Source: Eledone cirrhosa
Taxonomy: Eukaryota
Length of the DNA: 21,680 bases
Assembly (NCBI GenBank): GCA_964016885.1
Contig: CAXHJY010000266.1
Span: 1-21,680, forward strand
Direction: 5' to 3'
The notes below the pieces were generated by a model. The model made no database searches and was not told the DNA's origin. It worked only from the letters and a program-made list of their open reading frames with translations. Shown one piece after another: positions 16,321 to 21,680 of this stretch. A program made the translations under genes and the position numbers. Position 1 is the stretch's first letter. The number at the start of each line of letters is the position of its first letter.

Positions 16321-16484
16321 ATAGGAACAAGTAAGACCCCGACGGCTGAGCTCAAGCCGTTTCGACGGCTAATTCAGTACAGAATTAGCCGTCGAAACGG
16401 CTTGAGCTCAGCCGTCGGGGTCTTACTTGTTCCTATTACCCACTCTACTACCCTAAGTATTGAGTACCACATTTCCTTCGTTAT
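16321..16484 (+). mobile_element. Family A Penelope-like terminus: 55-bp perfect palindrome plus tail, in (TA)n
   Basis: Arms 16321-16375 / 16382-16436; each arm holds GAAACGGCT-TGAGCTC-AGCCGTC (hammerhead stem III plus GUC); tail 16437-16484 has an internal deletion relative to 20212-20291. Confidence 0.75.
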
Positions 16485-16652
16485 ATATATATATATATAT
16501 ATATATATATATATATATATATATATATATATATATATATATATATATATATATATATATATATATATAAGTTAAAACAAAAAACAAAACAATAACGAAG
16601 AGTGCAGTACAAAGTGTTAGTATTAGGTTCACGCTATATATATATATATATG

Positions 16653-16720
16653 CAGTGGCGGACTGGGTCTAAAAATATTGGTTGCCAGGAGTTGAAGGGG
16701 GCCCACCTACATAGAGAATG
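16653..16720 (+). mobile_element. Possible left end of a non-autonomous hAT-type element
   Basis: Starts CAGTGGCGGACTGG with a GGGGGCCC subterminal motif; no matching right TIR seen. Confidence 0.4.
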
Positions 16721-16867
16721 CTATCATTTCATTTTTATAATGAATAAATAACATTTTCGAAAAATACATAAGTGGAAACAAAACAGTGCAATCAAATTTT
16801 TGCGGAAAAATATCTTAGCTTCTCCAATAAAAAATATGAATTTTGCGAAATCCAAAGACTTTCAATA

Positions 16868-17338
16868 ATGACCAGAAGTTATTCCTAAATATTACTAATA
16901 GCTCTAGCGAAGCCATGAAAGACAACACATCTCTTTAACTTTGATTTTGAAAGTAGGTTTATAATTATCAATTTTCATTATACTTTTGTAGATGTCGTTG
17001 TGGCTTAGTTGGAAGGTTCATAGACGTTGGTGATCTTGGTCTGAAGTTCGATCCTGGTCGGAAGTAGGGTTCCCGTTAAACCTTTTCAGTTTTTTCCTAT
17101 TGGATGTAAAATAAAAACTGAAAAAGGTTACATGTACCTCTTGACCAGGATTGAACTCAAGGCCAGGATATCCACCGTCTCTAGTACCTACCGCTAGGCC
17201 ACACAGACAACTACGATAATCTTATGAAAATTCATACTTATAAACTTACTTTCAAAATTTTCAAAACAAAGTGTTGTGGTGTCGTTCATGTCTTTCTTAA
17301 TGTTATTGCTCCTACTTAAGGTCGACTTCTAAATCATT
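16868..17338. mobile_element. Diverged fold-back element with two convergent tRNA-like heads
   Basis: Imperfect inverted arms centred near 17105; A and B boxes at 17001-17012 / 17046-17054 (+) and 17191-17201 / 17148-17156 (-). Confidence 0.65.
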
Positions 17339-17689
17339 TGGGTGTTCCATAAACTACATCCTCGTTTTGTTTCTCATCTATCTAGACTATATTTTAACCT
17401 GTAATCCATGTTTCATTTCTGTTCCACCTCATTTCCCCCCCCCCCTCTCTCACTCTCTGTGATATTTGAATCTACTATGATTTGGGCTTACCTTATTCCT
17501 ACATATATGTTTTTGCATGTCGGTTAGATTCAAGTGTCTGTGTGTGTGTGAGTGTATCATTATCTAATATAGAAATGGCTTCTACAGAACTGGAACTGAA
17601 TGAACAGGCAATCGACTTTCATTAAATAGGACCGAGGTAACAATGTTTCCGTTGGTCTTTCCAATTGCTAATACTATCTATTGGTCGCA

Positions 17690-17755
17690 ACTCCAGTTAG
17701 AAGGAGTAACGTGAAATAAAATGTCTTGTTCAAGGACACAACGTATCGCCCGGTA
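17690..17755 (-). mobile_element. Fragment of a second SINE family
   Basis: Minus GTTGTGTCCTTGAACAAGACATTTTATTTCACGTT resembles the common post-B-box SINE motif GTTGTGTCCTTGRGCAAGRCACTT. Confidence 0.55.
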
Positions 17756-17808
17756 GAAATGCGTATATGCATATATATATACTGTATATATATATATATA
17801 TATATACA

Positions 17809-18464
17809 CAAGCAGTGGTACCCGGCGTTGCACGGGATAAGGTATTTTGGAACGCGGGCCGCCAACAGACCTAATCGTGGAAAAACTGCATGCCTGGACA
17901 ATATGTAAAGAAAATAAACCGAATACTCTGATGGCTGGGTAATCTTTAAGATTTTCCTCGATGAAGCAGGAAAAATGCAGGTTTTCACCTAATGCGGGCC
18001 CTAGGGGATCAAGAAATGAATTGTTTTTATGTGCATAATATGCCTTGAAATTTCGGGAAAATCGGCTAGACGTAACGCCTCAAAAAAGCCATAAAAAGCT
18101 GAAAAAAATGAAATTTTTCACCTAATGCGGGCCCTAGGCCATAAAAAAGTTGGATTTTCTTTTCTCACGGTATGAAGAAGTGACTGACTAATACAAAGTT
18201 ACAATTTCAAGGAAATCGGTCTGACGTAACGCCTCAAAAAAACCCCTAAAAAGCTGAAAAACGCAGTTTTTCACCTAATGAGGGCCTTAGAGGATCGAAA
18301 AGTTGAATTTGTTATGTGCATAACACTGCCTGAAACATAAGTAATGCACATGTAAGGTTTGAAAAAAATCGGTTGGGTACTTCTCGCCCCCCCCCCCCCC
18401 CCCACACACACACATACACACATACATACCACCTTCCTCAGTTTTATATATATACATATATAGA
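17809..18464 (-). mobile_element. Non-autonomous Helitron
   Basis: Minus strand: inserted between A and T, 5' TC(TA)n start, GC hairpin CCCGTGCAACGCCGGG 8 nt before terminal CTTG (CTAG-like); three internal ~135-150 bp repeats containing ttttcacctaatg.gggcc.tag. Confidence 0.75.
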
Positions 18465-18472
18465 TTAAAATA

Positions 18473-18548
18473 ACAGATTAAAGTGTAAGCAAAGAATCAT
18501 TGCTTTCACCCTTAACGGGATCTTCAGAAACTAAAAAAATCAATCTGT
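18473..18548 (-). ncRNA. Type I hammerhead ribozyme candidate with extended stem I
   Basis: ACAGATTGA-T7-AGTTT-CTGAAGA-TCCCGTTAAGGGT-GAA-AGCAA-TGATTCT-TTGCT-T/ACACT-TTAATCTGT; 5-bp stem III, CUU triplet, T.T at the base of stem II. Confidence 0.68.
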
Positions 18549-18759
18549 GAACGCAGAAGTAAATATTTCGAAAAACGTTGCAACCGAAGGAAAACAGGAA
18601 GACGATAGTTTGGTTCGTGAAGACGTTCCCTGGCAATGAACGGAAAATAGCGAACATAATACGTCATCAATGTTCGCCAGAATATCGTAATACAGACAGC
18701 CAGGCATACAGACAGATATTATAAGAGCGATACGGAGATCGATAACCGCCGCCTAACAC

Positions 18760-18949
18760 CCCTTTAACAACAGAAAATTGAAACATAAAAGCTGCAGTTA
18801 ATATCTTTAGACTGCAAGGAATATATAAATGCAAGTTTGAAGTCAATCGGAGTAGAAATGTGGATTTGTATAGACTTTGCAAAAACGAGGACACTCACAC
18901 AGACAACAACAGCTTTATATATATATATATATATATATATATATATAGA
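18760..18949 (-). mobile_element. 5' fragment of a second Helitron-like family
   Basis: aagtttgaagtcaatcgg...acacagaca..cagctt(TA)nGAT parallels the end of the 17809-18464 element (aaggtttgaaaaaaatcgg...cacatac...cagtttta(TA)nGAT). Confidence 0.5.
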
Positions 18950-20127: not shown

Positions 20128-20291
20128 TTCGACGGCTAATTCTGGACTCAGTCCAGAATTAGCCGTCGAAACGGCTTGAGCTCAGCCGTCGGGGGTCCTA
20201 CTCGTTCTTATTACCCACTCTACTACCCTAAGTATTGAGTACTTTGGTGCGTTATGGTCCACCTGGTTCCTTACCACATTTCCTTCGTTAT
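20128..20291 (+). mobile_element. Family A Penelope-like terminus: 21-bp palindrome, hammerhead 3' half and complete tail
   Basis: Arms 20128-20148 / 20150-20170; GAAA 20168-20171; GTC 20188-20190; (TA)n flanks. Confidence 0.75.
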
Positions 20292-20321
20292 GCATATATA
20301 TATATATATAATGTGTCGTGC

Positions 20322-20380
20322 ATTTTATCTGATGAGCGCGTACCAAAGTTTTGGTACCATTGAAATATATATAATAGAAT
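20322..20380 (+). ncRNA. Type I hammerhead ribozyme candidate (family C)
   Basis: ATTTTAT-CTGATGA-GCGC-GTACCAA-AGTT-TTGGTAC-CATT-GAAA-TATATAT-A/ATAGAAT; downstream sequence matches 19980-20013; base of stem II poorly paired. Confidence 0.72.
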
Positions 20381-20861
20381 AAATATGGTTTTATAAATAT
20401 AGTTTCCATTTATTTAATATCATTGAATATTATACTCCAGAAAACTTATCGAGTGCTCTGAATCAGTTATAAACATTTATTTTGTTGAATTACCAACAAA
20501 TTGAATATCATATCCGTTTTTGCTTATATATATATATATATATATATATATATATATATATATATATAATATATATATATATATTATATATATATATATA
20601 TATATATATTATATATATATTTATATATATATATATATTCAGGTTTGAGGTTCACCACTGTATAGAGCTGGTCTATTCCGTATGGTCAATCGTAATGCAA
20701 TAATATAGAGAGTACTCAACGTAAGGCAGTTCAACCGTATTTGTTTTTGTAGTGGTGGTGCTGAGGTTGAAGGAACAGAATAGCGGTCGCTCTCGGGTCC
20801 TCGATTTTCAGCCCCATGGATTTTATCTATTACATTCACGTATTATCGTATTATATTTCGA

Positions 20862-20919
20862 ATACCTGATGATATCACCGGATTCATACGGAAGCCGGTC
20901 ATTAAAATGATCATAGTAT
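20862..20919 (+). ncRNA. Degenerate hammerhead (GAAA changed to AAAA)
   Basis: ATAC-CTGATGA-..ACCGG..CCGGT..-AAA-ATGATCAT-A/GTAT; palindromic stem III and 4-bp stem I intact. Confidence 0.62.
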
Positions 20920-21216
20920 AAATAAACCTTTCAAGGATTTATACAAATCCAGCCTCCTGTCATTTCATTATTATATATATATATATATATATATATATAT
21001 ATATATATATATATATATATATATATATATATATATGTATATATATATATATATATATATATATATATATATATTAAATAGTTAAACAAGATTCAATGAG
21101 TATGTGAAAGAATGAGTTTTACAGTAGATTAGACGCACTCTATGGGAATAATTTTCCAGAGTTATTAATATTAAAATATAAATATTAATAAAATAGATGT
21201 TCTTTTGATCAATTAG

Positions 21217-21269
21217 ATTTTATTATACATATTTCGGATGTACAACTGTACGTCCTCATCAGACAAAAT
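21217..21269 (-). ncRNA. Type I hammerhead ribozyme candidate (mirror of 21380-21432)
   Basis: Exact reverse complement of the plus-strand copy. Confidence 0.8.
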
Positions 21270-21379
21270 ATAATGATACATGACATACCCTGAGATGTTA
21301 AATGGTTAAGATTTAATCAAGGCAGTCCTTGATTACATCTTAACCATTTAACATCTCAGGGTATGTCATGTATCATTAT

Positions 21380-21432
21380 ATTTTGTCTGATGAGGACGTA
21401 CAGTTGTACATCCGAAATATGTATAATAAAAT
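21380..21432 (+). ncRNA. Type I hammerhead ribozyme candidate
   Basis: ATTTTGT-CTGATGA-GGACGTAC-AGTT-GTACATCC-GAAA-TATGTAT-A/ATAAAAT; AUA triplet, predicted cut after 21425. Confidence 0.82.
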
Positions 21433-21543
21433 CTAATTGATCAAAAGAACATCTATTTTATTAATATTTGTATTTTATATATATATATATATATATATAA
21501 TTATATAATATAAGATCAAAAGATGGTTAAAGGAGTTCCATGT

Positions 21544-21612
21544 ATTTTATTATGCGCATTTCAAAAACAAACATCATCATGCAATAATATTTGTGTTTTC
21601 ATCAGATAAAAC
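21544..21612 (-). ncRNA. Type I hammerhead ribozyme candidate
   Basis: GTTTTAT-CTGATGA-AAACACAAATATTAT-TGCATG-ATGATGTTTGTTTTT-GAA-ATGCGCAT-A/ATAAAAT; perfect palindromic stem III. Confidence 0.8.
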
Positions 21613-21615
21613 AGG

Positions 21616-21680
21616 AGAACATGATATGAAGGCTAAAAAACACTTGTGGATAGTGATTTTTAGCCTTCATATCATGTTCT
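21616..21680. repeat. Inverted repeat running off the window end
   Basis: Arms 21616-21644 / 21652-21680, 7-nt spacer, 1 mismatch. Confidence 0.9.

What the first reader, a model, noticed from the sequence alone, without database searches (positions are those of the whole stretch)
16321..21680. Recurring palindrome-plus-asymmetric-tail insertion architecture
Seen: near-perfect palindromes with arms of 55 bp (16321), 56 bp (18943), 21 bp (20128), 151 bp (21172) and at least 29 bp (21616). In the four complete cases one arm stops at (TA)n while the other continues as a unique extension before (TA)n. Family A and C copies show two fixed ends (family A: ...GTTCCTAT and ...TTCGTTAT). Established: PLE insertions often have an inverted partial pLTR at the 5' end and a tail on the 3' pLTR. 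Inference: each insert records priming from two defined RNA ends, or cDNA fold-back, during integration.
Basis: partly seen in the sequence, partly recalled or inferred. Interest (0 to 1): 0.75.

Follow-up and report, generated by a model that had tools for sequence, protein, structure and literature searches.

The report
Twin-primed Penelope palindromes in (TA)n
These mirror-image inserts are real head-to-head ends of very common Penelope-like jumping genes, and because nearly every two-armed copy pairs one short end with one tailed end and most short ones centre on the element's predicted RNA start, they likely form when both sides of a DNA cut copy the same RNA from two different start points.

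Summary
All five palindromes are real at the stated places (shuffles give arms of 10 at most). They are 3' ends (pLTR plus tail) of four repeat families. Families A, B and C join to ORFs with motifs of the Hydra clade of Penelope-like elements (PLEs), which target (TA)n. The shape is published: an inverted 5'-truncated copy with a tail at one end. What I measured: of 129 two-armed insertions, 126 have one short and one tailed end, 3 an intermediate end, none two of a kind. Both arms share their source copy's variants, either arm can be the longer, and short arms stop at a TATA/initiator-like site. Raw reads from another study show both fixed ends and strand switches. Best model (0.65): both target ends prime reverse transcription on one RNA, one at each start site, and the cDNAs are joined head to head. 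Fold-back plus later deletion is not excluded (0.2). I found no paper with this rule. This scan reached the same reading earlier, in this genome and at least 11 others (unreviewed notes).

The parts
16321..16484 (.). Family A two-armed insertion: short-ended arm on minus (16321-16375), tailed arm on plus (16372-16484) with about 32 nt deleted from the tail
18943..19130 (.). Family B two-armed insertion: short-ended arm on minus (18943-18998), tailed arm on plus (19000-19130); hammerhead core CTGATGA..GAAA on each strand (19002+, 18996-); centre at the predicted RNA start
20128..20292 (.). Family A insertion: 21-bp minus arm that stops about 36 nt short of the short end, tailed plus arm 20150-20292 starting at the predicted +1
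21073..21482 (.). Family C two-armed insertion: tailed arm on minus (21073-21326, reaches predicted +1), short-ended arm on plus (21327-21482); hammerhead cores at 21262- and 21387+
21505..21680 (.). Family D: short-ended arm on minus (21505-21644; hammerhead core 21605-), second arm cut by the contig end; other copies carry a tail
9340..9470 (.). Family A inversion without duplication: tail-only arm on minus (9340-9412) joined to a short-ended arm on plus (9410-9470) that starts at the predicted +1; cannot be a simple fold-back
19175..19245 (.). Family A fragments: part of the tail on minus, then a short-end stub of a diverged subfamily on plus, with a short TA run between
19374..19436 (-). 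Family A short-ended arm of a diverged subfamily, abutting family E
19436..19805 (+). Family E repeat end with hammerhead core at 19528; 21-bp inverted remnant at 19436-19456; other copies show two ends and inverted pairs
20044..20114 (-). Family E tail fragment

Best explanation
Each palindrome is a single insertion of a Penelope-like retrotransposon (Hydra-type motifs in families A, B and C) into (TA)n, likely made by twin priming: the endonuclease would cut both strands, and the two DNA ends would prime reverse transcription on the same RNA, one at the tail end and one at the internal short end. SHOWN: family identity, two fixed ends, one of each per insertion, a common source copy for both arms, arms that are not nested, and clustering of 5' ends at a TATA/initiator-like site. 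INFERRED: that the two ends are RT start sites (by analogy to PAc in vitro); that the cluster is a Pol II start inside the pLTR, so short RNAs from 3' or solo pLTRs are copied to run-off; that the trailing RT displaces the first cDNA or stalls, giving tail-only arms; that the two cDNA 3' ends are joined by microhomology-type repair; and that two enzyme copies act together.
For: One-of-each rule: family A 78 of 79 pairs, B 36 of 37, C 12 of 13 have one short and one tailed end after I re-read the 15 'M' rows by hand; the other 3 have one intermediate end; 0 of 129 are short/short or tail/tail. The B sample was picked by a motif upstream of both ends, so it is not selected for tails. Five more long C pairs and 4 of 4 scored E pairs agree. 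Not nested: in the 78 pairs not selected on arm reach, the short-ended arm reaches further 5' in 36, the tailed arm in 23, with 19 ties; extremes exceed 1 kb either way (L112, L120, L110), and 10 tailed arms stop inside or at the tail. Same source: a B subfamily site agrees between arms in 31 of 31 pairs; shared A variants 21 against a permutation mean of 4.1, maximum 12 in 5000; 40 variants are shared by both arms and seen in no other long copy, over 7,918 overlapping bases. Start site: the modal 5' end sits in a YYANWYY motif 30-31 nt after TATAAAT in B and C and after TATTCATA in A; read depth falls about 30-fold upstream of it in contigs of run X1; a near-full-length B element begins 3 nt before the same base. 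Junctions: 60 overlaps, 11 blunt, 58 with inserted bases among 129. PMC11167929: PAc cuts and extends both strands and starts at two internal sites that bound the tail.
Against: A symmetric fold-back followed by one-sided deletion at the centre could also give unequal arms, shared variants and the one-of-each rule; I could not exclude it. PMC11167929 saw no difference in start site between the two DNA strands, which does not by itself predict a strict rule. The excess of longer short-ended arms is not significant (p = 0.12). An extra G before +1, expected from a copied cap (recalled), is enriched in A (15 of 29 against 14 of 102, several ambiguous) and B (4 of 6) but not C (1 of 12). The family A TATA box is poor. 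None of the 40 shared private variants is A>G, so nothing proves one RNA molecule rather than two from one locus. The counts include a few segmental duplicates (L112 twice, L114/L115). The start site is predicted from sequence only.
Confidence: 0.65

Rival explanations
1. One cDNA is primed at the tail end, runs off the RNA 5' end, folds back and primes its own second strand, which is joined to the target at the short end; unequal arms arise later by deletions across the unstable palindrome centre.
For: It gives the one-of-each rule and shared variants directly. Most short copies have nearly equal arms (68 of 104 clean A and B pairs end within 10 nt of +1 on both arms). Long perfect palindromes are known to lose their centres asymmetrically (recalled).
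Against: It predicts that the tailed arm is never the shorter, yet the short-ended arm is longer in 36 of 59 unequal unselected pairs, also by only 4-8 nt in short family B copies. Tail-only arms sit next to short-ended arms that still reach +1 (window 9340; L168; L183), and 2-kb C insertions overlap by only 84-126 bp.
Confidence: 0.2
2. Self-priming on an antisense RNA, as proposed for Adineta Penelope elements: the antisense 3' end folds back at the centre and is extended.
For: PMC3846280 reads head-to-head palindromes this way (passages).
Against: Centres coincide with a sense-strand TATA/initiator-like site in three families and with the 5' end of a near-full-length copy; arms often do not overlap; PAc uses sense RNA primed from target DNA in vitro.
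Confidence: 0.07
3. The short palindromes are a self-contained mini-element copied as a unit from palindromic masters.
For: A few junctions recur (L244/L245; the CAGGATTCCTG centre in five B copies).
Against: Most junctions differ; the recurring centre is explained by a 2-nt microhomology; sizes grade continuously from about 90 bp to several kb.
Confidence: 0.05
4. Fold-back library or assembly artefact.
For: The window is a small unplaced contig that ends inside a palindrome; no listed read or contig piece bridged the 21325 centre.
Against: Symmetry stops exactly at a family-specific end and does not mirror the flanks; arms differ by 3.9% on average; the same shape occurs on many chromosomes; Illumina reads of three samples from another study show both ends and strand-switch joints.
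Confidence: 0.01

Closest known systems
Hydra clade of endonuclease-bearing PLEs (Craig et al. 2021, PMC8557442; passages read)
   Same: C-terminal GIY-YIG, RW(R/K), DKT, CxCX5C linker, CxxC and CxH around the conserved E and N, hammerhead cores, (TA)n targets.
   Different: Described as mostly under 3 kb; family B spans about 6 kb between pLTRs. Tails are about 70-100 nt, not 30-40. Family A's hammerhead 5' core reads CTGAGAAG, not CTGANGA. No tree was built.
General PLE insertion shape: inverted 5'-truncated copy, tail often at one end only (PMC8557442 Fig. 2 legend; PMC3846280, passages)
   Same: Head-to-head arms, palindromic junction, tail on one arm.
   Different: Those papers call the tail optional and explain it by endonuclease resolution or antisense self-priming. 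Here it is one per insertion in 126 of 129, and centres map to a predicted start site.
PAc (Poseidon, Anolis) in vitro (Frangieh et al. 2024, PMC11167929; parts 1-2 of 4 read)
   Same: Two internal RT start sites bound the tail; both strands cut and extended; AT-rich targets; uncut RNA is the template (arms here run through the predicted ribozyme cut site).
   Different: Other clade; no account of the inverted arm or of how the two sites are shared between the DNA ends; steps after initiation left unvalidated.
L1 twin priming (recalled, not read)
   Same: Both target strands prime on one RNA, giving a 5' inversion joined by microhomology; matches the tail-only cases such as window 9340-9470.
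   Different: In L1 the second site is variable and arms do not duplicate each other; here the second site is fixed and both cDNAs usually copy the same stretch.

Membership tests
Endonuclease-bearing Penelope-like element | Single ORF with RT and C-terminal GIY-YIG endonuclease | tested here: met
   Family B: 713-aa ORF P0001 with YRDD and IVY..YIG; weak Pfam GIY-YIG hit, E 0.012, below cut-off; 1403 relatives, many with PF26215. A and C: joined ORF pieces with the same motifs. D not tested.
Endonuclease-bearing Penelope-like element | pLTR-ORF-pLTR with partial tandems and inverted copies | tested here: met
   L259 has two pLTRs 5,966 bp apart around the ORF; 65 exact pLTR-ORF junctions in the genome; tandem and inverted forms.
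Endonuclease-bearing Penelope-like element | Tail present on a fraction of ends | tested here: met
   Two ends in A, B, C, D and E; longer than the 30-40 bp in print.
Endonuclease-bearing Penelope-like element | Hammerhead motif in the pLTR | tested here: inconclusive
   Ten CTGANGA..GAAA cores by pattern; no hammerhead family among the 150 best Rfam rows shown of 215; free folds did not give the hammerhead; family A core is non-canonical. Cleavage untested.
Hydra clade | RWK-like motif and DKG changed to DKT | tested here: met
   B: IRWRA, SDKTKN; A: LRWRT, HSDKTGN; criteria.
Hydra clade | CxCX5C linker; CxxC and CxH flanking conserved E and N | tested here: met
   B CNCLNKEAC, CDLCISE, CMH; A CNCPDGSIC, CNLCSEE, CKH; C CNCRNKTDC, CALCTME, CLH.
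Hydra clade | Insertion into (TA)n | tested here: met
   122 of 129 pairs have four or more TA units within 25 nt on both sides, 7 on one side. Empty sites not found.
Hydra clade | Placement in the Hydra clade of an RT tree | not tested
   No named reference proteins were on hand.
Twin priming (L1-type mechanism) | Two cDNAs primed from opposite target strands on one RNA | tested here: inconclusive
   Arms not nested and of one source, but later deletion and two RNAs of one locus are not excluded.
Twin priming (L1-type mechanism) | Target-site duplication or defined double cut | not testable with these tools
   Targets are (TA)n; no empty-site proxy among 123 flank pairs.

The most novel reading that the evidence does not exclude
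PLE integration is an obligately asymmetric double-priming reaction: one complex cuts both strands and assigns one DNA end to the tail start site and the other to the internal start site of a single RNA, with no ordinary second-strand step at the 5' junction. The tail, the inverted pLTR and the swarms of mini-palindromes would be one phenomenon, and palindrome centres would map each family's transcription start from the genome alone.
Probability: 0.5. Interest if true: 0.7.

Novelty: new member of a known kind. Interest (0 to 1): 0.48.

Why it matters
How PLEs make their inverted repeats and one-sided tails is described as unresolved (PMC8557442; PMC11167929). The one-tail-per-insertion rule and the start-site centres turn this into predictions that the existing PAc assay can test. 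These stubs are also very common (15,065 exact matches to one 31-mer of family B), so they can be mistaken for MITEs, microRNA hairpins or assembly errors.

Tried and rejected
Rfam gave only microRNA-type hairpin matches below their cut-offs among the 150 rows shown. A DNA search with family B found nothing because common words are skipped; an exact pattern worked. A genome-wide count of short/short, short/tail and tail/tail pairs by a gapped pattern was not possible, so counts rest on fetched loci. Empty-site search by collinear flanks gave only neighbouring repeats. Predicted dimer of the first 260 residues of P0001: no answer, score 0.00, alignment not used. No RNA holder listed. Centres at the ribozyme cut site: rejected, since arms run through it and stop 40-50 nt upstream in A and B. 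A 3' splice site or a U-rich stall as the cause of the 5' cluster: considered; A/T-run expansions at some A junctions fit stalling, but B and C match a TATA/initiator spacing better; not excluded. ADAR editing as a mark of one RNA: 0 of 40 shared private variants were A>G. Pile-up of tailed arms exactly at the short end: too few cases to claim. One tail/tail row (L146) was dropped because a TA run separates the arms; filters such rows. I guessed a cephalopod host from the repeat content and searched that literature; the guess is untested and those passages said nothing on this shape.
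Full report
Observation. A palindrome scan recovered all five structures with the stated arms. Shuffled sequence gave arms of at most 10 bp in 40 tries. The window is a whole 21,680-bp contig of a 3.0-Gb genome, and the last palindrome is cut by its end. Ten hammerhead-type cores lie in the window, five of them inside the B, C and D palindromic inserts. Rfam returned no hammerhead family among the 150 rows shown of 215.

What the pieces are. Searching the genome with family A gave near-identical copies. 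[quoted passage not shown] For family B, locus L259 holds pLTR, a 713-aa ORF and a second pLTR. One 31-mer of B has 15,065 exact matches, and the pLTR-ORF junction has 65. Family C arms run into ORF pieces 35-53% identical to the B protein. A, B and C carry the motifs listed for the Hydra clade: RW, DKT (seen in A and B), CxCX5C, CxxC and CxH. No tree was built. D and E were only seen to have two ends and hammerhead cores.

The rule. I paired head-to-head arms in the window and loci L001-L279, removed identical strings and skipped pairs with a TA run between the arms. The script gave 114 short/tail pairs and 15 rows with an odd end. Twelve of these are short ends extended by AT-rich alignment, tails with internal deletions, or a diverged subfamily. 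Three (L114, L247, L200) have a real intermediate end. So 126 of 129 have one of each, and none has two of a kind. Thirty family A loci were selected for tailed arms. The B loci were chosen by a motif upstream of both ends, in genome order: the first 30 hits plus 40 fetched stretches covering part of the 100 listed. They give 36 of 37. A few pairs are segmental duplicates.

One source, two cDNAs. Arms agree at subfamily sites (31 of 31 in B; 21 shared variants against 4.1 expected in A). Long A arms share 40 variants seen nowhere else, besides 136 private ones. So both arms come from one source copy and have since aged apart. They are not nested: in 78 unselected pairs the short-ended arm reaches further 5' in 36 and the tailed arm in 23. 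Ten tailed arms stop in or at the tail, as at window 9340-9470. A single fold-back from the tail-primed cDNA predicts the tailed arm is never shorter, unless later deletions removed part of it. That escape remains open.

The centres. Short arms end in a narrow zone. The mode lies at an A within YYANWYY (consensus recalled), 30-31 nt after TATAAAT in B and C and TATTCATA in A. In A, 29 of 188 arms end on that base and 44 run further than 15 nt upstream; in C, 12 of 43; in B the mode is one base later, 14 of 90. The A and C samples were partly selected to reach this zone, but six two-armed A copies read by eye in the 400 kb of fixed-position samples end there too, and depth in contigs of run X1 falls about 30-fold upstream. 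A near-full-length B element starts three bases before the same A. Many other pLTR-ORF copies keep the upstream promoter region, as partial tandems would. An extra G before +1 is enriched in A and B but not C. Family E has a 5' mode (10 of 50) just before CAAGATGGCG, a YY1-like motif (recalled). I read the zone as the pLTR's start site; this is predicted, and no RNA run was listed.

Not an artefact. RAD-seq reads from three samples of another study show loose (TA)n ends at the short end in about 2,900-3,400 reads each, reads running past the tailed end, and strand-switch joints; family C shows the same in one of these runs. Depth steps in these runs are distorted by restriction sites. No listed piece bridged the 21325 centre itself, so that exact junction is not independently confirmed.

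Mechanism. Likely the endonuclease cuts both strands of (TA)n. One end primes at the tail end and the other at the short end of the same RNA. Both cDNAs run toward the 5' end, mostly to run-off on short pLTR-started RNAs. The two 3' ends are joined with short overlaps or inserted bases (60 overlaps, 11 blunt, 58 inserts of 129). The two-site initiation and two-strand extension are shown for PAc in vitro (PMC11167929); the assignment of one site per DNA end, displacement of the first cDNA and the joining pathway are inferred.

Compared with print. The shape is known (PMC8557442 and PMC3846280, passages). PMC3846280 explains it by antisense self-priming. PMC4209133 notes close opposite-strand hammerhead pairs (passages). 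PMC2377424 places the Drosophila Penelope promoter inside the transcript (passages), unlike the upstream TATA seen here. I saw only the abstract and outline of bioRxiv 10.64898/2026.07.22.740005 and two irrelevant passages of PMC12602865. Searches found no paper stating the one-of-each rule, twin priming for PLEs, or start-site centres. The library lacks most subscription papers, including the older PLE reviews, and I read no supplements, so prior mention is possible. The scan's own notes hold the same reading for this genome and others; I consulted them after forming my view, and they are not independent support.

Verdict. Real, a known kind of element and a known shape, with a measurable rule that points to a testable mechanism. 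Interest 0.48.

Noticed in passing
window 4573-5850 (-): Broken non-LTR reverse transcriptase ORF (Pfam RVT_1, E 1.5e-24), interrupted by a (TA)n/(CA)n tract; unrelated to the palindromes.
   Followed up: partly
window 6400-9200: Dense cluster of a roughly 180-bp dispersed repeat separated by (TAA)n, SINE-like, also common in fetched loci.
   Followed up: no
window 9640-9730, 18480-18560, 19900-20010, 20310-20500: Further hammerhead-core repeat ends between (TA)n runs (cores at 9684-, 18527-, 19925+, 20329+), likely more PLE families; new copies often sit in the TA flanks of older ones.
   Followed up: no
L107:8262-8270 and other family A copies: Family A's hammerhead 5' core reads CTGAGAAG and lies upstream of the predicted RNA start, so short RNAs would lack half the ribozyme; an older subfamily seems to keep CTGATAA with a better TATA box (loose end).
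   Followed up: partly
L290: Tandem junction in family B where the ORF start is joined to G plus the predicted +1 sequence, as expected of a template jump from a capped 5' end.
   Followed up: no
L255:4-9101: A roughly 4-kb inverted repeat (97% identity) around a family B ORF fragment; the palindrome class reaches about 9 kb.
   Followed up: no
L259: Family B has about 3.6 kb between ORF end and 3' pLTR, long for the Hydra clade as described.
   Followed up: no
L061, L071, L075, L078: Four of 40 fixed-position 10-kb samples hold other Hydra-like ORFs, 35-45% identical to P0001, so the clade is abundant and diverse in this genome.
   Followed up: partly
window 13697-14009 and 14849-15154: Short tandem arrays of 104-bp and 79-bp units.
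   Followed up: no
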